Positions 5,396 through 11,438 of a stretch of DNA of 22,079 nucleotides are shown here, one piece after another. Source of the DNA: a virus (taxonomy: Duplodnaviria > Heunggongvirae > Uroviricota > Caudoviricetes); the IMG/VR virus record IMGVR_UViG_3300014519_000074; one strand, written 5' to 3'. Made by a program: the position numbers and the translations under genes. The first letter of the stretch is position 1. Each line of letters opens with the position of its first letter. The notes under the pieces were generated by a model. It made no database searches, was not told where the DNA came from, and saw only the letters and a list, made by a program, of their open reading frames with translations.

Positions 5396-5449
5396 TTTGC
5401 TGTCCTGTCAATTGGGTTCTGGCGCGGTATCCCGCGCCGTTCAGATATA

Positions 5450-5965
5450 TCAGAGGCCGAGGGCGTTGCGGTGCGCTTCCATCAGGTCCACACCGTCCAC
5501 AATTTCCACCATGTTGATAAGGTCCACTTCATAGAGCACCTCACCATTGATGGTCAGCTTCGCGTAGCTGTTGGTACTGGTCACTTTGGTGGTGTTGCTT
5601 TCGCCCGTCTTCCACTCGCCGGAATCCACTTCTTTGTGACGTCCACGCACGACAAGCTCCACGGCCTGCACTTCCCCGGTATCGTCACGCTGAATAGAGC
5701 CGGTAAAGCGCAGCTGGATGCCATCCACCGTGGCTTTACCCATCTGTTTAAACAGCAGCAATTCAGTACCACCAATGGAAAATTCTGTATCCAGCGCACT
5801 GTCATCAAGCCCCAGATCCACATCCACCGCACCCGGCATTCCGCCGCCGCGATACTTCTCATATTTGCGGGTAAATTTCGGCAGCGTCAGCGACTCAACG
5901 ATCCCCTGCCAGTTGTTCCCGTCGTTAAACAGGTTCAGGTGTTTTAATTTGCGTGGTAAAGCCAT
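5450..5965 (-). CDS. FII: Tail tube protein FII
   Basis: 171-aa ORF MALPRKLKHLNLFNDGNNWQG...; size and sequence as for P2 gpFII; lies immediately downstream of the sheath 3' fragment. Confidence 0.9.
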   Translation of the reverse strand: MALPRKLKHLNLFNDGNNWQGIVESLTLPKFTRKYEKYRGGGMPGAVDVDLGLDDSALDTEFSIGGTELLLFKQMGKATVDGIQLRFTGSIQRDDTGEVQAVELVVRGRHKEVDSGEWKTGESNTTKVTSTNSYAKLTINGEVLYEVDLINMVEIVDGVDLMEAHRNALGL

Positions 5966-5974
5966 GTTGTCCCC

Positions 5975-6195
5975 TTACGCGCTGACCTGGCTGGCGAAAT
6001 TAACCAGGTACTGATCGGTGATGCGCTGACGCAGCATCAGGTTTTCAAGTGGCGGCACTGGCGTGTAGTCGTAGTCGATGGTGAGTTTTCCGGCTTTCAG
6101 CGTGTCTTTGTCGTTCACCGACTCATCCAGCCAGCAATCACCACCAATGAGATAGCCCTGACTGACCAGGCTGCGCATTTTGGCGCGGATACCTT
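5975..6195 (-). pseudogene. FI: Tail sheath FI, 3' fragment (C-terminal ~73 codons), separated from the rest of the gene by an inversion
   Basis: Minus-strand translation ...G|[71 protein letters not shown] matches the sheath C-terminus (P2 gpFI ...[31 protein letters not shown]...). The [13 protein letters not shown] prefix of the tracked ORF is junction/cassette-derived, not sheath. Confidence 0.85.
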
Positions 6196-6207
6196 GGTTT
6201 GGGAGAA
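6182..6207. other. Hybrid recombination site (inversion junction 2): good gix/cix-like half-site TTCTCCCAAACC + AA core (minus-strand reading) fused to sheath-derived GGTATCCGCGCC
   Basis: Plus strand GGCGCGGATACC TT GGTTTGGGAGAA. The cassette-side half is identical to the half-site at 8045..8056; the other half is FI coding sequence. Confidence 0.7.
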
Positions 6208-6543
6208 TTATCTCTGGCTGGCACTGCATCGGGTGTCATTGGCCTGAATGGGTATGTAACGATCCCGTTAATTATTTCAGGTTCCCGGAGAACACTGATT
6301 ATTCAGTGGGGGCAGGCGAGATTTGGTGGGTCTGGTGGTGAAGATGCCGGATATCTTAACGATTTTCCTTTTGCCTTTCCGTCAGCATGTTATGGAATGA
6401 TAGTTAGTCATGTGGGGCATACACCTTCAGGCGCAGGAATCCTGTCGGCTTCTGCAATTACATCAAATCAGTTCCGCGGTTTTTCAAGCATAGCGACTGC
6501 TGTAAACGCTGTATTAGGTCGTTATATCGCTATAGGGGTGTAA
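6196..6543 (+). CDS. Tail fibre C-terminal variable cassette (Sv-like); no start codon or promoter of its own, in frame with the H constant part across the crossover site in the reconstructed orientation
   Basis: Open frame begins at the crossover core ([16 protein letters not shown]...[10 protein letters not shown]...GRYIAIGV) and is followed directly by a tail-fibre assembly gene; arrangement matches Mu/P1 Sv-U cassettes. Confidence 0.75.
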
Positions 6544-6544
6544 T

Positions 6545-6982
6545 ATGTTTTATAGTCCATCTTTAAACATTTTTGTGAATCCTGCACTTAAGGATGATTA
6601 CATTAATGCAAATTCATGGCCAGATGATGCTCTGGCTGTCAGTGATGATGTTTATAATGAATTTGCAATCAATACGCCTCCAGATGACAAAATTCGTGTT
6701 GCAGGAAAAAATGGATTACCCACATGGGCACTAATACCTCCACCATCACATGAAGAACTTATTCAACAGGCAGAATCAGAAAGGCAATTATTGCTTAATC
6801 AGGCCAACGAATACATGAACAGTAAACAATGGCCCGGTAAAGCCGCTATTGGTCGTCTGAAAAGCGAGGAACTGGCGCAATATAATTCGTGGCTGGATTA
6901 TCTGGACGCACTGGAGCTAGTCGATACTACCGGTGCGCCAGATATTGAATGGCCTACGCCTCCGGCAGTTCAGGCCAGATGA
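6545..6982 (+). CDS. Tail fibre assembly chaperone (Tfa, U-like) for the Sv cassette
   Basis: 145-aa ORF starting at the stop of Sv (TAAtATG); C-terminus ...GAPDIEWPTPP resembles the conserved Tfa C-terminal motif; converges on and overlaps U' by 29 bp. Confidence 0.8.
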   Translation: MFYSPSLNIFVNPALKDDYINANSWPDDALAVSDDVYNEFAINTPPDDKIRVAGKNGLPTWALIPPPSHEELIQQAESERQLLLNQANEYMNSKQWPGKAAIGRLKSEELAQYNSWLDYLDALELVDTTGAPDIEWPTPPAVQAR

Positions 6983-7556
6983 CATCCGGCGCGGTGCTGG
7001 TATCTGTTGCCGCCACCGCGTCAATGTAATCCAGCACGGCGTTAAGTCGGGTTGTTTCTGCCTGCGTCAACTTCCGTCCGGCCTGTAATTTCAGCTGAAT
7101 CAGACTAATGGAAGCCATTGCTGCATCAATCAGTGACTGGCGCTGTGCTTCTGCCGCGTCTACTGCGGCACTATGCTGTGCCTCAGTATCCGTCACCCAT
7201 TTCTCACCATCCCATTTATCATATGGCGTTAACGGGGCGATAGTGGTTGTATTTTCAGGGTAATCACCCGGAGCTGTGATTTCTTTCGATTCTCCTGTTT
7301 CGGTGCTATAGATGATTTCACCGCGATGGTCTGGCACATATTCCCATGAGTTAAAATCTGCAGAACGGCAGATTGCATAACCAGCTTTATGTGTAACTGG
7401 TGCATCTAAACAAGAACATGCCGGGATACCGACGCCAACCGCAAGATATTCAGTTGATGTGGAAATATATTCCCGCGTTTCACCATCATAATTATAAATG
7501 GTAATGTCTCCCGCTTTTATGGCAATGAGTTCGTTATTTAATACGGCTTTATTCAT
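6954..7556 (-). CDS. Tail fibre assembly chaperone (Tfa, U'-like) for the Sv' cassette
   Basis: 200-aa ORF directly downstream of Sv' on the minus strand; C-terminus ...TAPDVIWPELPEA parallels that of the opposing Tfa. Confidence 0.8.
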   Translation of the reverse strand: MNKAVLNNELIAIKAGDITIYNYDGETREYISTSTEYLAVGVGIPACSCLDAPVTHKAGYAICRSADFNSWEYVPDHRGEIIYSTETGESKEITAPGDYPENTTTIAPLTPYDKWDGEKWVTDTEAQHSAAVDAAEAQRQSLIDAAMASISLIQLKLQAGRKLTQAETTRLNAVLDYIDAVAATDTSTAPDVIWPELPEA

Positions 7557-8098
7557 CAGGCAGCCCTCACGATATAGTTAAATGCAATATTCCGTGGACG
7601 GGTTTCATTTATCCCATATGCTGTTGTTCTCTGATTCCCGACAAAATATCCATTTGGATTAGAAGATACAGAATAATCATCAAAATCAAGTGGGCTATCA
7701 GCACCCGGCGTCAGGCTTGCAATATATCCTCTTCCCATAACTTCTGATGCTGGTATTTCTTTTGTACGATAATCACTAACTCTGAAGAGCTGCCCTTGGT
7801 GGGTGTGTGATTCCACTCCTCCATTCTGAAGACTTAGCAAGGCACGTACAGCATCAATACCACGCCCGTCATCCCAGCCACGAATAAACTCACCACGTAA
7901 ATCAGGCAATTTATTTGTCGGATAAGCCTTTGCCAGTTCCGGGTATTCTTCAGCAGAAAAAGCGGCACCGTTGCATTTCAGCCAGCCTGTTGGCGGAGTG
8001 GCTGAAGGCCACGGAACAGGCACCCCAACCGGTAATGCAGAGCCTTCTCCCAAACCAACGTTTAAGAAAATGCAGAGGTAACAGCTAACTGGCATCAT
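7556..8098 (-). CDS. Alternative tail fibre C-terminal variable cassette (Sv'-like); functional portion begins at the crossover site (about 8056) and would be fused to H after cassette inversion
   Basis: Translation ...FLNVGLGEGSALPVGVPVPWPSATPPTGWLKCNGAAF...HTHQGQLF... resembles the tail-collar-type receptor-binding C-termini of Mu S'/P1 fibres; its 5' end contains the gix-like site, and the GLGE codons are identical to the start of the Sv cassette. Confidence 0.75.
   Translation of the reverse strand: MMPVSCYLCIFLNVGLGEGSALPVGVPVPWPSATPPTGWLKCNGAAFSAEEYPELAKAYPTNKLPDLRGEFIRGWDDGRGIDAVRALLSLQNGGVESHTHQGQLFRVSDYRTKEIPASEVMGRGYIASLTPGADSPLDFDDYSVSSNPNGYFVGNQRTTAYGINETRPRNIAFNYIVRAA
8045..8070. 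other. Intact gix/cix/hix-like 26-bp recombination site: TTCTCCCAAACC AA CGTTTAAGAAAA
   Basis: 12-2-12 imperfect dyad resembling DNA-invertase crossover sites (hix/gix/cix as remembered); lies at the Sv' 5' end just upstream of the invertase gene; its left half is an inverted copy of the half-site at 6196..6207. Confidence 0.7.
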
Positions 8099-8125
8099 CT
8101 CCGGTTTTTATTCAGGGGGATGATC

Positions 8126-8692
8126 ATGCTTATTGGCTATGTACGCGTGTCAACAAATGACCAGAACACCGATTTGCAACGTAATGCACTGAACTGCGCG
8201 GGATGTGAGCAGATTTTTGAGGACAAAATCAGTGGCACTAAGTCCGACAGACCGGGGCTGAAAAAACTACTCAGGACACTATCGGCAGGAGACACGCTGG
8301 TTGTCTGGAAGCTGGACAGGTTGGGGCGCAGTATGCGGCATCTTGTTACGCTGATAGAAGAGTTGCGCCAGCGTGGTGTGAATTTCAGAAGCCTGACTGA
8401 CAGTATTGATACCAGTACCCCAATGGGCCGTTTCTTTTTTCATGTCATGGGTGCCCTGGCTGAAATGGAACGCGAACTGATAGTTGAACGTACCAGGGCA
8501 GGGCTGGCTGCAGCTCGTGCCAAAGGCAGAGTAGGTGGACGCCGTCCTAAGTTGACCACCGAACAGTGGGCACAGATTGGGCGTTTACTCGAGGCCGGAG
8601 AATCAAGACAGCGTATTGCACTGATTTTTGATGTAGGCGTTTCTACCATTTATAGAAAATTTCCGGCAAATAAGATCAATGAATCCCCCTGA
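8126..8692 (+). CDS. Serine DNA invertase of the Gin/Pin/Cin/Hin family (ORF track start 8120; ATG at 8126 gives MLIGYVRVST...)
   Basis: Translation MLIGYVRVSTNDQNTDLQRNALNCAGCEQIFEDKISGTKSDRPGLKKLL...DTLVVWKLDRLGRSMRHL...GRFFFHVMGALAEMERELIVERT...GGRRPKLT...VGVSTIYRKFP is near-identical in pattern to Gin/Cin/Pin, with the catalytic Ser in the YVRVST motif and a C-terminal helix-turn-helix; GGGGGA Shine-Dalgarno upstream. Confidence 0.95.
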   Translation: MLIGYVRVSTNDQNTDLQRNALNCAGCEQIFEDKISGTKSDRPGLKKLLRTLSAGDTLVVWKLDRLGRSMRHLVTLIEELRQRGVNFRSLTDSIDTSTPMGRFFFHVMGALAEMERELIVERTRAGLAAARAKGRVGGRRPKLTTEQWAQIGRLLEAGESRQRIALIFDVGVSTIYRKFPANKINESP

Positions 8693-8740
8693 ATCAGCAT
8701 TATGTTGATTATCCCTGCAAGCAGACAAATACCGTTATTT

Positions 8741-8758
8741 TGTGTGAATAACGACACA
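8741..8758. promoter_or_regulatory. Candidate Ogr-type activator site (TGT-N12-ACA) of a PF-like late promoter, about 80 bp upstream of the FI start
   Basis: TGTGTGAATAACGACACA seen in the invertase-FI intergenic region; P2 late promoters carry TGT-N12-ACA dyads centred near -55. The motif is short and expected by chance a few times in 22 kb. Confidence 0.4.
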
Positions 8759-8834
8759 ACTGCGCTTAGCTGTTTGTCAGGCACAATCACTTCAACATAG
8801 GGCGAAGCCTAATCCAATCAGGAGGTTCGCCACT

Positions 8835-9797
8835 ATGGCTCAGGATTACCACCACGGGGTGCGCGTTGTTGAAGTCAACGAAGGTACCCGATCTATTACC
8901 ACGGTGAGCACCGCCATCGTGGGTATGGTCTGCACGGGCGATGATGCCGATGCAAAAATGTTTCCTCTTAATAAACCCGTGCTGATCACTGATGTGCTGA
9001 CTGCCAGCGGTAAAGCGGGTGAGTCAGGTACTCTGGCCCGTTCGCTGGATGCCATCGCTGACCAGGCAAAACCCGTGACCATTGTTGTGCGTGTGCCGCA
9101 GGGTGAAACGGAAGACGAAACCACGACCAATATCATCGGCGCAGTGACTGCAGAAGGTAAAAAAACAGGTATGAAAGCCCTGTTATCTGCCCAGTCACAG
9201 CTCGGCGTTAAACCGCGCATTCTCGGCGTGCCAGGCCACGACACCAAGGCGGTAGCTACTGAGTTGCTGAGCGTGGCGCAAAGCCTGCGTGGATTTGCTT
9301 ACCTGTCAGCGTATGGCTGCAAGACAGTGCAGGAGGCGATCACTTACCGCGAAAACTTCAGCCAGCGCGAAGGGATGCTGATCTGGCCTGACTTTACTGG
9401 CTGGGACACGGTGCTGAATGCCGAAGCAACGGCATATGCCACCGCCCGTGCGCTTGGTCTGCGCGCCAAAATTGACGAGCAGACCGGATGGCACAAAAGC
9501 CTGTCCAACGTGGGCGTGAACGGTGTCACCGGAATTTCTGCAGATGTGTTCTGGGATCTGCAGGACCCGGCAACCGATGCAGGTCTGCTGAACCAGAACG
9601 ACGTCACCACGCTTGTGCGTAAAGACGGTTTCCGCTTCTGGGGTTCCCGCTGCCTGAGTGATGACCCGCTCTTTGCCTTCGAAAACTACACCCGCACGGC
9701 GCAGGTGCTGATGGACACGATGGCAGAAGCACACATGTGGGCGGTGGATAAACCGCTTAACCCGTCGCTGGCCCGCGACATTATCGAAGGTATGTGA
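8835..9797 (+). pseudogene. FI: Tail sheath FI, 5' part (N-terminal 320 codons), truncated by the inversion junction; opposite strand to all flanking late genes
   Basis: Translation MAQDYHHGVRVVEVNEGTRSITTVSTAIVGMVCTG...FENYTRTAQVLMDTMAEAHMWAVDKPL...ARDIIEG is colinear with the P2 sheath N-terminal ~320 residues; it ends with M-stop contributed by junction sequence; AGGAGG Shine-Dalgarno upstream. Confidence 0.88.
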
Positions 9798-9800
9798 GAA
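9775..9800. other. Hybrid recombination site (inversion junction 1): sheath-derived GCGACATTATCG + AA core + gix-like half-site GGTATGTGAGAA from gene H
   Basis: Joining FI 8835..9788 to the reverse complement of 6193..5975 restores ...[15 protein letters not shown]... in frame; the H-side half-site encodes the H residues LLTYL. Confidence 0.7.
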
Positions 9801-10836
9801 GACCAGCTACATCCTTTCCACTCAAATTGGTAAGCGTATTGTCCAGCGGTTGTTTACCTGCCAGCGCATTAAGCATTGTCGTGGCAAAGTTCGGATCATT
9901 CCCCAGTGCCGCCGCCAGTTCGTTCAGTGTATCCAGTGCAGCAGGTGCAGAACCCACCATTCCTGCAATCGCCGATTTCACAAAAGCCGTAGTGGCAATC
10001 TGTGTATTGTTGACCGACTGCGCCGCCGTGGGGGCTGTAGGCGTTCCGGTGAGTGCCGGACTCGACAACGGTGCTTTTAGTGCCAGCGCATTGTTAATGG
10101 TGGTACTGAAATTCGGATCATTGTTAATGGCTGCGGCTATTTCTTTCAGCGTGTCCAGCGTGGCTGGCGCACCATTAATAAGGGCCGTCAGTGCCGCCTG
10201 TACAAACGCAGTGGTCGCAACCTGCGTGGTATTATTCCCCGCCGCTGGCGTTGGCGCTTTGGGGGTTCCGGTAAATGTCGGGCTGGCTTTTGGCGCGTAC
10301 TGTGAATGCGGGTCCGGTGCGGCAAGATGTTTTGCCATCTGATCATCCGCGTACACCTTCAGCTCCAGTGCCTTGTCATCCACATACTTGCGGGTTGCCA
10401 GCACTACAGCAGGGTCGATTTTCAGGGTGATATTGTCCGTGCTGCTGGTAATCAGCACCATGCGCACGGTCTGAGTGCGCCCGCTACCTTCAGCCAGTTG
10501 CGGCTTATAGCTTTCCGGGCAGTTGCCCACGGCAATCAATGCACCTGACTCATCAAACAGGCCCACTTCACGTATCCACCAACCGCCCTCGTTTTCAGGG
10601 ATCACCTGTTCGGCAATAATCTGGCTGCTGTTCTGCGGGTCGATATAAAGCATATTCAGCGCAGCCCGGCGTTTCTCATTTACCAGTGCCGTCTGCTTTG
10701 CGTCCGGCGTTGGCAATACTCCACCGCCATCGCCCACCGCCATATGGGTAATTTTTAGCGGCACACCGAGCGCGGCGGCGCTGGCAAGTTTCGCCGCGCC
10801 AATATCCGTCAGCAGGGTATAAAATTTTGTGCTCAT
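9781..10836 (-). CDS. H: Tail fibre protein H, constant N-terminal part (351 aa), ending in a junction-derived stop and lacking a C-terminal receptor-binding cassette in this orientation
   Basis: N-terminus MSTKFYTLLTDIGAAKLASAAA...; two tandem ~70-aa fibre repeats (...NTQVATTAFV...DPNF...); last codons ...LLTYLR* cross the junction into FI-derived sequence. Confidence 0.85.
   Translation of the reverse strand: MSTKFYTLLTDIGAAKLASAAALGVPLKITHMAVGDGGGVLPTPDAKQTALVNEKRRAALNMLYIDPQNSSQIIAEQVIPENEGGWWIREVGLFDESGALIAVGNCPESYKPQLAEGSGRTQTVRMVLITSSTDNITLKIDPAVVLATRKYVDDKALELKVYADDQMAKHLAAPDPHSQYAPKASPTFTGTPKAPTPAAGNNTTQVATTAFVQAALTALINGAPATLDTLKEIAAAINNDPNFSTTINNALALKAPLSSPALTGTPTAPTAAQSVNNTQIATTAFVKSAIAGMVGSAPAALDTLNELAAALGNDPNFATTMLNALAGKQPLDNTLTNLSGKDVAGLLTYLR
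9844..10281. repeat. Tandem duplication (2 x ~215 bp) encoding two copies of a ~72-aa tail-fibre shaft repeat within H
   Basis: Protein repeats TGTPKAPTPAAGNNTTQVATTAFVQAALTALINGAPATLDTLKEIAAAINNDPNFSTTINNALALKAPL and TGTPTAPTAAQSVNNTQIATTAFVKSAIAGMVGSAPAALDTLNELAAALGNDPNFATTMLNALAGKQPL; the nucleotide copies both contain TTCGGATCATT. Confidence 0.7.
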
Positions 10837-11438
10837 GGATTCACTCTCATTGTGTCAATAACATGGACCGCCCCGCCTTCATGCGCGGTGCCACCGGAAA
10901 TAATCGTTTCGTTGATATACGGATAGATCGTGATTTCTTCGCCAAGATAGCTGGCGGCTCCCACCCAATGCGGGCCGCTGGTCTGCAGATTGATGGACAT
11001 GCCGATCATGTGGCGGCTACATGGTTTGGCATCGCTTATCAGTCGCTCAAGTTCCAGATAGGTATCTTCAGTGATGCCCTGGTCCTGCACGCCGATATCC
11101 AGGCGAAACGTGCCCGGTGTTTCTCCGGTCTGCCACCACTCAATAATGCGGATCAGGAATCCGAACGGCTCCACCACCCGCCGCACGGCACTGGTGGTCC
11201 CTTTATGCTGATGAATATAAAAAGCATCCTTCACCACCTGGCGCTTGACGCTTTCTGTCCAGCCCTCGTCCCAGCGATCCACAGAGAACGCCCAGGCGAG
11301 ATAAGGCAGGAAACTGACCGGACAGGTTGCCGGATTCCACAAATCACGAAGCGGCACCTGCAGATCAGAAATCCCGCTGCAGGTTTGCGCCAGTCGGCAC
11401 TCCAGTGGTGTTGAACCCGGTGGCAGCAGACTATTCAT
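10833..11438 (-). CDS. I: Baseplate/tail fibre attachment protein I
   Basis: 201-aa ORF between J and H; position and size as P2 gpI; 4-bp overlap with the H start. Confidence 0.8.
   Translation of the reverse strand: MNSLLPPGSTPLECRLAQTCSGISDLQVPLRDLWNPATCPVSFLPYLAWAFSVDRWDEGWTESVKRQVVKDAFYIHQHKGTTSAVRRVVEPFGFLIRIIEWWQTGETPGTFRLDIGVQDQGITEDTYLELERLISDAKPCSRHMIGMSINLQTSGPHWVGAASYLGEEITIYPYINETIISGGTAHEGGAVHVIDTMRVNP

What the first reader, a model, noticed from the sequence alone, without database searches (positions are those of the whole stretch)
6182..8692. Mu G-segment-like invertible host-range cassette (Sv-U / U'-Sv') with adjacent Gin/Pin-family invertase in a P2-like tail module
Two C-terminal fibre cassettes, each followed by its own Tfa chaperone, face each other (the Tfa genes converge and overlap by 29 bp). 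They are bounded by inverted copies of TTCTCCCAAACCAA (6194..6207 on the minus strand, 8045..8058 on the plus strand), and a serine invertase gene starts about 55 bp beyond the right site. This is the classical phase-variable host-range switch, here sitting where P2 itself has the Z/fun region between G and FI. The two cassettes differ greatly (114 vs ~170 codons), implying two distinct receptor specificities.
Basis: partly seen in the sequence, partly recalled or inferred. Interest (0 to 1): 0.55.

Follow-up and report, generated by a model that had tools for sequence, protein, structure and literature searches.

The report
Misfired fibre switch broke its prophage
This is a well-known type of phage tail-fibre "flip switch" in a P2-like E. 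coli prophage, but here the flipping enzyme apparently once recombined with a look-alike sequence inside the tail-sheath gene, turning over 3.6 kb, splitting both the sheath and the fibre genes, and leaving a crippled prophage that is now inherited by a whole bacterial lineage while its inner cassette still flips.

Summary
Two 26-bp crossover sites (6182-6207, 8045-8070) in inverted orientation bracket two fibre-tip/chaperone cassettes, next to a serine invertase (8126-8692) that is 85% identical to e14 PinE. In this window the switch is not attached to the fibre gene. The left site abuts a 3' fragment of the sheath gene (5975-6193, minus). The sheath 5' part (8835-9793) lies on the plus strand. 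The fibre constant part (10836-9794, minus) runs into it and stops. Flipping 6194-9788 in silico restores both genes and makes the window collinear with E. coli N32 (9,605 bp, 4 mismatches, 0 gaps). The outer breakpoints share ATACCTT, which is the inner half-site bases plus the central TT of the native fibre site. This points to an invertase-mediated inversion at a secondary ("quasi") site in the sheath gene. It is not an assembly artefact. Two complete genomes (AR_0013, AF57) and about 190 public contigs carry the same junctions, with the inner cassette in either orientation (55 versus 88 contigs). The switch itself is already known. The sheath-gene off-target inversion, fixed in a lineage, is a new natural example of a known phenomenon. 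Interest is moderate.

The parts
5975..6193 (-). 3' fragment of the tail sheath gene FI (last ~72 codons). In this orientation it is called as an 84-codon ORF (5975-6229) that begins inside the antisense of cassette Sv1.
   Evidence: Pfam Phage_sheath_1C profile positions 47-104. It continues the 8835-9793 fragment exactly once 6194-9788 is flipped. PGAP annotates the equivalent in AR_0013 and AF57 as a pseudogene 'missing N-terminus'.
6182..6207 (+). Crossover site A, a hybrid: GGCGCGGATACC TT GGTTTGGGAGAA. The outer half comes from the sheath gene and the inner half is a native half-site. Central dinucleotide at 6194-6195.
   Evidence: The inner half is identical to the native fibre site of N32 and to the e14 pix left site.
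6196..6543 (+). Fibre-tip cassette Sv1 (about 115 codons). It has no constant part attached in this window.
   Evidence: Pfam Gp53-like_C, E=1e-12. In N32 it is fused in frame to the fibre N-terminal part to give a 465-aa protein (...[12 protein letters not shown]...).
6545..6982 (+). Tail fibre assembly chaperone Tfa1 (145 aa), partner of Sv1.
   Evidence: Pfam Caudo_TAP, E=1e-32. 56 of 117 residues identical to e14 TfaP.
6954..7556 (-). Tail fibre assembly chaperone Tfa2 (200 aa), partner of Sv2. It converges on Tfa1 with a 29-bp overlap.
   Evidence: Pfam Caudo_TAP, E=3e-32. 185 of 200 residues identical to e14 TfaE.
7556..8056 (-). Fibre-tip cassette Sv2 (166 codons after the crossover; the open frame runs to 8098).
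   Evidence: Pfam Collar, E=6e-16. In CE10 it is fused to the fibre N-terminal part to give a 516-aa protein. 110 of 201 aligned positions identical to e14 StfE, with near-identical ends.
8045..8070 (+). Crossover site B, native: TTCTCCCAAACC AA CGTTTAAGAAAA. Central dinucleotide at 8057-8058.
   Evidence: 25 of 26 positions identical to the e14 right pix site TTCTCCCAAACCAACGTTTATGAAAA. It is the highest-scoring 26-mer in the 22 kb under a half-site matrix, but that matrix included this site's own half-sites, so the rank is circular.
8126..8692 (+). Serine DNA invertase (188 aa) of the Pin/Gin/Cin/Hin family.
   Evidence: Pfam Resolvase + HTH_7. Gin structures 3uj3 and 4m6f, E=3e-93 over residues 1-184. 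85.3% identical to PinE and 76.2% to Gin.
8148..8210 (+). Predicted recombinational enhancer: two Fis-consensus-like 15-mers (8148-8162 and 8196-8210) with centres 48 bp apart, inside the invertase gene.
   Evidence: The same two motifs occur at the same positions and spacing in pinE and gin. The motif is degenerate and the region is coding, so this is an inference and not a demonstration.
8741..8758 (+). TGT-N12-ACA dyad upstream of the sheath start codon, the type of element found in Ogr-dependent P2 late promoters. It is the probable promoter of the sheath-to-D tail operon and now lies inside the inverted segment.
   Evidence: Sequence match. The role is assigned from my knowledge of P2 late promoters and was not tested.
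8835..9793 (+). 5' fragment of the tail sheath gene FI (codons 1-319), reversed relative to the rest of the tail operon. The open frame ends at 9797 after one junction codon.
   Evidence: Pfam Gp18_domIII_N, Phage_sheath_1 and Phage_sheath_1C profile positions 1-47. PGAP pseudogene 'missing C-terminus' in AR_0013 and AF57.
9775..9800 (+). Crossover site C, a hybrid: GCGACATTATCG AA GGTATGTGAGAA. The left half comes from the sheath gene and the right half is the outer half-site of the native fibre site. Central dinucleotide at 9787-9788.
   Evidence: The right half is the reverse complement of TTCTCACATACC, the left half of the native N32 fibre site.
9794..10836 (-). Constant N-terminal part of the tail fibre gene H (about 347 codons), truncated. 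The open frame ends at 9781 after the junction codons ...YLR*.
   Evidence: Pfam Phage_tail_fib, E=7e-65. PGAP pseudogene 'missing C-terminus' in AR_0013 and AF57. This exact 351-aa product is found on 189 public contigs.
6194..9788 (.). The 3,595-bp aberrantly inverted segment, containing the inner cassette module, site B, the invertase, the late promoter and the sheath 5' part. It is bounded by the 7-bp inverted repeat ATACCTT (6189-6195) / AAGGTAT (9787-9793).
   Evidence: Flipping it makes the window collinear with N32 over 9,605 bp with 4 mismatches and 0 gaps.

Best explanation
The window is the late and tail region of a P2-like prophage of E. coli that carries an e14-Pin-type invertible tail-fibre module.

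Ancestral arrangement (still seen in strains N32 and CE10), in gene order:
- fibre constant part
- site TTCTCACATACC-TT-GGTTTGGGAGAA
- Sv1-Tfa1 facing Tfa2-Sv2
- site B
- invertase
- late promoter
- sheath, tube, E, T, U, D

The event (inferred). The invertase, or a related one acting in trans, synapsed the fibre site with a secondary site inside the sheath gene instead of with site B. That secondary site is GGCGCGGATACC-TT-CGATAATGTCGC, at codons ~316-324. It has the same central dinucleotide in the required inverted orientation and the same five inner bases (ATACC). It lies in cis, 1.7 kb beyond site B and beyond the intragenic enhancer. Strand exchange at the central TT inverted 3,595 bp.

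Consequences (shown by the sequence).
- The fibre gene loses both alternative tips.
- The sheath gene is cut into a 319-codon piece and a 72-codon piece on opposite strands.
- The probable late promoter now points away from the tube-to-D genes.

The prophage should therefore be unable to make tails or fibres (inferred).

Inheritance. The state is inherited vertically in one E. coli sub-lineage. The inner 1,865-bp cassette segment still flips between hybrid site A and site B, without any effect on a fibre.
For: Structure
- Both sheath pieces are halves of one Pfam domain, profile positions 1-47 and 47-104.
- Flipping 6194-9788 restores a 390-aa sheath ORF and a 465-aa fibre ORF.
- The flipped window is collinear with N32 over 9,605 bp with 4 mismatches and no gaps. 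No base is gained or lost at either junction.

Mechanism
- The native fibre site in N32 and CE10 is TTCTCACATACC-TT-GGTTTGGGAGAA. The outer breakpoints fall within the shared ATACCTT, which includes its central dinucleotide.
- Each product site is exactly one native half plus one sheath half.
- The sheath sequence is the only other A[AT]ACC-TT in the 22 kb.
- The sheath site has the central dinucleotide in the inverted orientation, the same as site B.
- Secondary-site use by this enzyme family is established for Cin. Iida & Hiestand-Nauer 1986 and 1987 are cited in PMC4134206; their content is from my memory.

Not an artefact
- Both junctions are present in the complete genomes AR_0013 and AF57, where PGAP annotates three pseudogene pieces.
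- The junction-specific proteins are on 189 and 190 contigs from several sources, including strains HVH 187 and HVH 53.
- Three metagenome contigs carry junction A.

One lineage
- The window, AR_0013 and AF57 share two alleles against N32 and CE10.
- All four genomes have the prophage in the same LysR-family gene. The flanks differ by 0 SNPs within each pair and 2 SNPs between pairs over 12 kb.

Inner flipping continues
- Both orientations occur with the identical truncated fibre. The alpha-specific ORF is on 55 contigs and the beta-specific ORF on 88.
- This was verified at DNA level for L021-L027 and in L032-L034.
- The block boundaries confine the exchange to 6194-6207 and 8045-8058.

Family
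- Invertase 85% identical to PinE, site B 25 of 26 to pix, Tfa2 92.5% identical to TfaE.
Against: - No experiment or read-level data links the invertase to the outer inversion. The exchange point can only be placed within 7 bp.
- The sheath site is a poor overall match to a half-site matrix. It scores -7.8 bits against +28.6 and +29.2 for the native sites, and ranks 96 of 2,638 AA/TT-centred 26-mers. That matrix was built from only eight distinct half-sites, which included the native sites' own. So sequence alone does not explain why this site was used.
- The enhancer assignment rests on a degenerate motif in conserved coding sequence.
- Inner flipping in the lineage could be catalysed by another prophage's invertase. 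AR_0013 has four related loci.
- A single origin is the parsimonious reading of a few SNPs. It is not a phylogeny.
- Loss of tail production is inferred from gene structure only.
Confidence: 0.84

Rival explanations
1. One reading: an intact, operating Mu-G-like host-range switch, in which inversion between 6182-6207 and 8045-8070 alternates the C-terminus of a functional tail fibre.
For: The sites, the cassettes and the invertase are all present and of the right families. The segment does flip in nature. In the relatives N32 and CE10 this is exactly what the module does.
Against: In this window no fibre constant part adjoins either site. The left site adjoins a sheath-gene fragment, and the fibre N-terminal part ends at 9781-9794, 3.6 kb away. 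The sheath gene is split.
Confidence: 0.03
2. The 3.6-kb inversion is an assembly or chimeric-read artefact of the genome that the window comes from.
For: Invertible prophage segments are known to confuse assemblers (PMC4134206). No complete RefSeq E. coli genome is collinear with the window.
Against: The same two outer junctions occur in two independently sequenced complete genomes, on about 190 contigs from NCBI, ENA, Logan and JGI, and in 3 metagenome contigs. A 7-bp repeat is far too short to mislead an assembler. The window's own inner orientation is indexed in 96 blocks.
Confidence: 0.01
3. The outer inversion arose without the invertase, by illegitimate recombination or template switching between the 7-bp inverted microhomology ATACCTT/AAGGTAT. 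Its coincidence with the crossover site is accidental.
For: The sheath site scores poorly as a recombinase site. Short inverted microhomologies can mediate rare inversions (general knowledge). The exchange point cannot be resolved within the 7 bp.
Against: One endpoint falls on the central dinucleotide and inner bases of one of only two native crossover sites in the prophage. For a random endpoint in a 5-Mb genome that is of the order of 1e-6 to 1e-5 (my estimate). The partner has the matching central dinucleotide in the orientation required for inversion, lies in cis next to the invertase gene and its putative enhancer, and the products are exact half-site hybrids.
Confidence: 0.08
4. The sheath-gene sequence is a genuine third crossover site of a multi-site (shufflon-like) system. 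It would give a reversible ON/OFF switch of tail production rather than an accident.
For: Three-site P2-like prophage inversion systems exist in E. coli (PMC4272514). Hybrid site A evidently still recombines. All other genes in the 22 kb remain intact in the lineage.
Against: Among 1,005 complete genomes carrying this sheath region, 992 have it intact, and only AR_0013 and AF57 are known to be split there. The site scores -7.8 bits and lies in conserved coding sequence. No genome was identified as a revertant, though the data could not have distinguished one. The split state tracks one sub-clade.
Confidence: 0.04

Closest known systems
P-segment / Pin invertase system of the cryptic prophage e14 (E. 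coli K-12: stfP-tfaP / tfaE-stfE, pinE)
   Same: Same layout of two convergent tip-plus-chaperone cassettes between inverted 26-bp sites, with the invertase just outside. The invertase is 85.3% identical. Site B matches at 25 of 26 positions. The native fibre site matches the left pix site at 22 of 26. Tfa2 is 92.5% identical to TfaE and Tfa1 about 48% to TfaP.
   Different: The host element is a P2-like myovirus prophage, not a lambdoid remnant. Sv1 is only distantly related to StfP (34 of 115), and Sv2 is a mosaic of StfE. In this window the module is cut off from its fibre gene by a second, larger inversion.
G segment / Gin of phage Mu and C segment / Cin of phage P1
   Same: Serine invertase of the same family (76.2% identical to Gin; Gin crystal structures at E=3e-93). 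The site architecture is the same: 12-bp half-site, 2-bp core, 12-bp half-site. Fis-like motifs sit at the same positions inside the gene.
   Different: The core dinucleotide is AA/TT here and in e14, whereas the Mu gix sites read TC/GA. The cassettes are shorter and from different families.
Quasi-site (secondary crossover site) inversions by Cin (Iida & Hiestand-Nauer 1986, 1987; cited in PMC4134206; content recalled from memory)
   Same: Recombination between a genuine site and a poorly matching sequence that shares the central dinucleotide. The exchange is conservative and produces hybrid sites.
   Different: Those events were recovered in plasmid and phage P1 experiments. Here the event is natural, lies inside the phage's own sheath gene, inactivates two essential tail genes, is fixed in a host lineage sampled on about 190 contigs, and one hybrid product site is seen still recombining.
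Invertible fibre loci of P2-like prophages in E. coli (EPEC E2348/69, PMC4272514) and prophage fibre inversions in ST131 EC958 (PMC4134206)
   Same: The same kind of element in the same kind of prophage. The 26-bp sites fit the consensus tabulated there. Co-existing orientations are seen in sequence data.
   Different: Those reports describe functional two-site or three-site switches that produce alternative fibre C-termini. Neither reports a crossover within a sheath gene or a switch detached from its fibre gene.

Membership tests
Pin/Gin/Cin/Hin (Din) serine DNA-invertase inversion systems | Small serine recombinase with an N-terminal catalytic (resolvase) domain and a C-terminal helix-turn-helix | tested here: met
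   Pfam Resolvase E=2e-53 and HTH_7 E=1e-15. Full-length match to Gin structures 3uj3 and 4m6f, E=3e-93. 85.3% identical to PinE.
Pin/Gin/Cin/Hin (Din) serine DNA-invertase inversion systems | Two 26-bp crossover sites (12-bp imperfect inverted half-sites around a 2-bp core) in inverted orientation flanking the segment | tested here: met
   Site B matches the e14 pix site at 25 of 26. Site A has one native half-site and the same core. The native two-half fibre site is present in N32 and CE10.
Pin/Gin/Cin/Hin (Din) serine DNA-invertase inversion systems | The segment is actually found in both orientations | tested here: met
   N32 versus CE10 in the canonical state. The window and L025 versus AR_0013, AF57, L021-L024, L026 and L027 in the split state. 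This is a comparison between genomes, not a within-culture measurement.
Pin/Gin/Cin/Hin (Din) serine DNA-invertase inversion systems | Fis-bound recombinational enhancer in cis (inside the invertase gene in Hin, Gin and Cin) | tested here: inconclusive
   Two Fis-consensus-like 15-mers 48 bp apart at 8148-8162 and 8196-8210, conserved in position in pinE and gin. The motif is degenerate (6 hits with at most 1 mismatch in 240 nt) and the region encodes a conserved peptide.
Pin/Gin/Cin/Hin (Din) serine DNA-invertase inversion systems | Inversion depends on the invertase, Fis and negative supercoiling | not testable with these tools
   Needs genetics or biochemistry.
Phage host-range switch (Mu G / P1 C type) | Each orientation fuses one alternative C-terminal cassette in frame to a constant fibre N-terminal part that is expressed from outside the segment | tested here: not met
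   Met in the relatives (465-aa and 516-aa fibres in N32 and CE10). In this window neither site adjoins the constant part, which ends at 9781-9794.
P2-like (Peduoviridae-type) prophage tail module | P2 gene order: V W J I H (G) ... FI FII E T U D ogr, with capsid and terminase genes Q P O N M L upstream | tested here: met
   RefSeq annotation of the near-identical loci in AR_0013, AF57, N32 and CE10, and Pfam families of the called genes. The only departures are the inserted invertible module and the 3.6-kb inversion.
Secondary-site (quasi-site) recombination by a Din invertase | One partner is a genuine site; the other shares the central dinucleotide in the orientation that allows inversion but matches the consensus poorly | tested here: met
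   Fibre site at +28.6 bits and sheath site at -7.8 bits. Both have a TT/AA core in inverted orientation and share the heptamer ATACCTT.
Secondary-site (quasi-site) recombination by a Din invertase | Conservative, reciprocal exchange that yields two hybrid sites with no gain or loss of bases | tested here: met
   The flipped window aligns to N32 with 0 gaps. Sites A and C are exact half-site hybrids.
Secondary-site (quasi-site) recombination by a Din invertase | The event requires the invertase | not testable with these tools
   Inferred only from the coincidence of the breakpoint with the crossover core.
Multi-site inversion systems (p15B Min; three-site P2-like locus of EPEC) | Three or more good crossover sites, each bordering an alternative fibre cassette | tested here: not met
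   The third site lies in the sheath gene, borders no cassette and scores -7.8 bits. The sheath region is intact in 992 of 1,005 complete genomes that carry it.

The most novel reading that the evidence does not exclude
The sheath-gene site may not be a one-off accident. It could be a low-efficiency third site that makes the outer inversion reversible, so that the lineage carries a phase-variable ON/OFF switch for production of P2-type tails or virions. Alternatively, the orphaned cassettes, which still flip, may have been co-opted for a host function such as blocking adsorption of other phages, as reported for the e14 cassette product StfE2 after PinQ-driven inversion (PMC12529663). Neither is excluded: the rest of the prophage is intact, the invertase is intact, both hybrid sites keep one native half-site, and the lineage is widely sampled.
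Probability: 0.06. Interest if true: 0.7.

Novelty: new member of a known kind. Interest (0 to 1): 0.4.

Why it matters
- **The switch itself is textbook biology.** Near-identical copies are already annotated in hundreds of E. coli genomes.
- **What is worth recording.** This is a natural, fixed example of a site-specific invertase damaging its own phage. One off-target inversion simultaneously breaks the fibre gene and the sheath gene and separates the tail operon from its probable promoter. That would turn an otherwise intact prophage into a vertically inherited remnant.
- **A route to prophage domestication.** It shows a route to prophage decay that leaves no deletion or insertion and is easy to misannotate. 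PGAP simply reports three "incomplete" genes.
- **A natural experiment on site requirements.** A hybrid site with only one consensus half-site still supports inversion in vivo. The site that was used shares little with the consensus beyond the core dinucleotide and five inner bases.
- **A practical warning for annotators.** An invertase plus inverted sites plus cassettes does not imply a working host-range switch. The junction to the constant fibre part has to be checked.

Tried and rejected
- **Repeat significance.** The 14-mer pair is at about chance level in 22 kb, so I did not rely on it.
- **Junction scans.** The 18-mer scan of viral contigs found nothing. In genome contigs it gave 12 hits in unrelated MAGs. 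I took these as chance matches of an 18-mer in 596 Gb from their taxa alone, without inspecting the loci, and ignored them.
- **Half-site matrix ranking.** I expected the sheath site to stand out. It does not (rank 96 of 2,638). Only the inner heptamer is distinctive.
- **Independent events.** Sheath-fragment cluster members of 313-321 aa turned out to be contig-end partials that continue the normal sheath sequence. The search across the intact quasi-site gave 992 of 1,005 genomes intact. So there is no evidence of a hotspot.
- **Promoter and terminator scan.** The scan of 5900-9900 gave counts no better than shuffles for promoters (5 versus 5.1) and weak terminator candidates only. I did not use it.
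- **Receptor inference.** Phage homologues of the tips were uninformative.
- **Literature.** Johnson's 2015 review and Plasterk & van de Putte 1985 are not held. The first quasi-site text search returned only irrelevant papers. The quasi-site papers are cited through PMC4134206 only.
- **Misassembly and the intact-switch reading.** Both are rejected on the evidence given under the rival explanations.

Full report
**1. The observation**

- TTCTCCCAAACCAA occurs at 6194-6207 (minus) and 8045-8058 (plus), and nowhere else even with 3 mismatches allowed. The inverted repeat extends to 17 nt.
- Between the copies lie a 114-codon ORF (6199-6543, +), a 145-aa ORF (6545-6982, +), a 200-aa ORF (6954-7556, -) and a 180-codon ORF (7556-8098, -). 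A 188-aa ORF follows at 8126-8692 (+).
- Pfam assigns these to Gp53-like_C, Caudo_TAP, Caudo_TAP, Collar, and Resolvase + HTH_7.
- One exact 14-nt inverted pair is about what 22 kb yields by chance (and my estimate). The repeat is therefore validated by context and comparison, not by statistics.

**2.

- The ORF immediately left of the left site (5975-6229, minus) carries the second half of a sheath C-terminal domain, Phage_sheath_1C profile positions 47-104.
- The ORF at 8835-9797 on the opposite strand carries sheath domains ending at profile position 47 of the same family.
- The fibre N-terminal ORF (10836-9781, minus; Phage_tail_fib, E=7e-65) runs head-on into that sheath piece and stops.
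- A 7-bp inverted repeat, ATACCTT (6189-6195) / AAGGTAT (9787-9793), marks the two points.
- Flipping 6194-9788 in silico restores one sheath ORF and one fibre ORF in which the constant part reads through "...[12 protein letters not shown]..." into the 114-codon cassette.

**3. Test against real genomes**

- No complete E. coli genome among 5,426 is collinear with window 5400-10900.
- Strain N32 matches window 6189-9793 as a single 100% block with the flanks reversed. Strain CE10 matches in the pattern expected if the fibre is fused to the other cassette.
- Their annotations show intact genes in the order I, H, Tfa, Tfa', tip', recombinase, sheath (1,173 bp), tube. The fibre is 465 aa in N32 and 516 aa in CE10.
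- The flipped window aligns to N32 over 9,605 bp with 4 mismatches and no gaps. The unflipped window aligns in three blocks that overlap only in the heptamer.

**4. The sites**

| Site | Sequence |
|---|---|
| Native fibre site (N32) | TTCTCACATACC-TT-GGTTTGGGAGAA |
| Site B | TTCTCCCAAACC-AA-CGTTTAAGAAAA |
| Intact sheath gene, complementary strand | GGCGCGGATACC-TT-CGATAATGTCGC |
| Window site A (6182-6207) | sheath left half + TT + fibre-site right half |
| Window site C (9775-9800, read on the minus strand) | fibre-site left half + TT + sheath right half |

- These are the products expected from a 2-bp staggered exchange at the core by a serine invertase. The shared ATACC means the exchange point is only resolved to 7 bp.
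- The sheath sequence has its core in the same orientation as site B, that is, inverted relative to the fibre site. It lies in cis, 1.7 kb beyond site B.
- I scored sites with a half-site matrix built from this prophage, e14 and Mu. The native sites' own half-sites went into that matrix, so their high scores are partly circular.
  - The native sites score +28.6 and +29.2 bits.
  - The sheath site scores -7.8 bits and ranks 96 of 2,638 AA/TT-centred 26-mers.
  - It is nevertheless the only other A[AT]ACC-TT in the 22 kb.
- Secondary "quasi" sites selected through the central dinucleotide are established for Cin. The two Iida & Hiestand-Nauer papers are cited in PMC4134206. Their content is from my memory, because the originals are not held.

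**5. Family**

- The invertase is 85.3% identical to PinE and 76.2% to Gin. It matches the Gin structures at E=3e-93.
- Site B equals the e14 right pix site at 25 of 26 positions. The native fibre site matches the left pix site at 22 of 26.
- Tfa2 is 92.5% identical to TfaE.
- Two Fis-like 15-mers 48 bp apart occupy the same positions in this gene, pinE and gin (8148-8162 and 8196-8210). This is weak but consistent evidence for the intragenic enhancer.
- A TGT-N12-ACA dyad at 8741-8758 precedes the sheath start. From what is known of P2 late promoters, this is probably the promoter of the sheath-to-D operon. It now lies inside the inverted segment and points away from tube, E, T, U and D.

**6. 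Not an artefact, and inherited**

- Junction A is present in AR_0013 and AF57. Junction C is present in exactly those two of the 5,426 genomes.
- PGAP annotates both sheath pieces and the fibre as incomplete pseudogenes, and nothing else in the 22 kb.
- Exact-sequence look-ups:

| Protein | Contigs |
|---|---|
| Truncated fibre, 351 aa | 189 |
| Sheath 5' fragment, 320 aa | 190 |
| Alpha-specific junction ORF, 84 aa (this window's inner orientation) | 55 |
| Beta-specific junction ORF, 115 aa | 88 |
| Intact fibre H-Sv1 | 33 |
| Intact fibre H-Sv2 | 85 |

- The truncated fibre and the sheath fragment occur in named strains HVH 187 and HVH 53.
- DNA from contigs L021-L027 and L032-L034 confirms both inner orientations on the same outer inversion.
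- The window, AR_0013 and AF57 share two alleles (5230, 5929) against N32 and CE10. The two window-private SNPs are synonymous.
- All four genomes have the prophage in the same LysR-family gene. Over 12 kb of flank, AR_0013 equals AF57 and CE10 equals N32, and the two pairs differ by 2 SNPs.
- The parsimonious history is one outer inversion in one sub-lineage, inherited vertically, with later A×B flips. This also implies that a site with one native half-site still works, although possibly through an invertase supplied in trans.
- Among 1,005 complete genomes carrying this sheath region, 992 have it intact. The event is therefore rare and not a hotspot.

**7. Comparison and novelty**

- Invertible fibre modules in P2-like E. 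coli prophages, including a three-site one, are documented (PMC4272514). Fibre-region inversions and the 26-bp site consensus are documented for other E. coli prophages (PMC4134206).
- New here is a natural quasi-site inversion into the phage's own sheath gene, fixed in a lineage. I classify it as a new member of a known kind and score interest at 0.4.
- The most novel reading not excluded is a reversible ON/OFF switch or a co-opted orphan cassette, by analogy with PinQ and StfE2 (PMC12529663). I give it about 6%.

**8. Limits**

- No reads, no expression data and no biochemistry were available.
- Invertase dependence, loss of tail production, enhancer function and single origin are all inferences.
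- Receptor specificities of the two tips could not be inferred.

Noticed in passing
window 8110-8121 and 8683-8694: A perfect 12-nt inverted repeat (ATTCAGGGGGAT / ATCCCCCTGAAT) brackets the invertase ORF from its ribosome-binding region to its stop codon (I22). About 0.5 such pairs are expected by chance in 4.3 kb.
   Followed up: no
window 8741-8758: A TGT-N12-ACA dyad (TGTGTGAATAACGACACA) lies 77 bp upstream of the sheath start codon. This is the element type of Ogr-dependent P2 late promoters. Because of the outer inversion it now drives transcription toward the truncated fibre gene rather than toward the tube-to-D genes.
   Followed up: partly
window 7556-8098 (-) compared with e14 stfE (L019 4120-4656): The Sv2 tip is a mosaic of e14 StfE. 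The first ~80 and last ~16 residues are nearly identical, and the middle (the presumed receptor-binding part) is diverged.
   Followed up: partly
protein P0011 (580 aa, E. coli): The same fibre N-terminal part is joined, right after the crossover-encoded ...YLGLGE motif, to a quite different glycine-rich C-terminal cassette in another E. coli. This is evidence that cassettes are exchanged between prophages at this motif.
   Followed up: no
proteins P0017, P0019, P0026, P0027, P0030: Partial sheath proteins of 313-321 aa from E. coli, Klebsiella and Shigella assemblies end within 6 codons of the quasi-site. They continue the normal sheath sequence, so they are contig ends and not the junction. 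I did not examine why contig ends cluster there.
   Followed up: partly
window 9152 and 10039: The only two bases that distinguish the window from all four close relatives are synonymous changes, and each lies in one of the two broken genes, the sheath 5' piece and the fibre constant part.
   Followed up: partly
L015 and L016 (AR_0013, AF57), whole 22 kb: Apart from the two sheath pieces and the fibre, every prophage gene in the region is annotated as intact, from ogr and D through the capsid, terminase and portal genes. The inactivation therefore looks recent, or the rest is being maintained.
   Followed up: partly
outside the window: L028-L031: In all four related genomes the prophage sits in a truncated LysR-family regulator gene next to sad, glsB and the lsr operon. 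The flanks are nearly identical (0-2 SNPs in 12 kb), so the hosts belong to one clonal complex that includes the neonatal-meningitis strain CE10.
   Followed up: yes
window 6199-6543: The Sv1 tip (Gp53-like_C) is rare among sequenced phages. Only 17 records match, all at 45% identity or less, and most are Klebsiella P2-like phages.
   Followed up: partly
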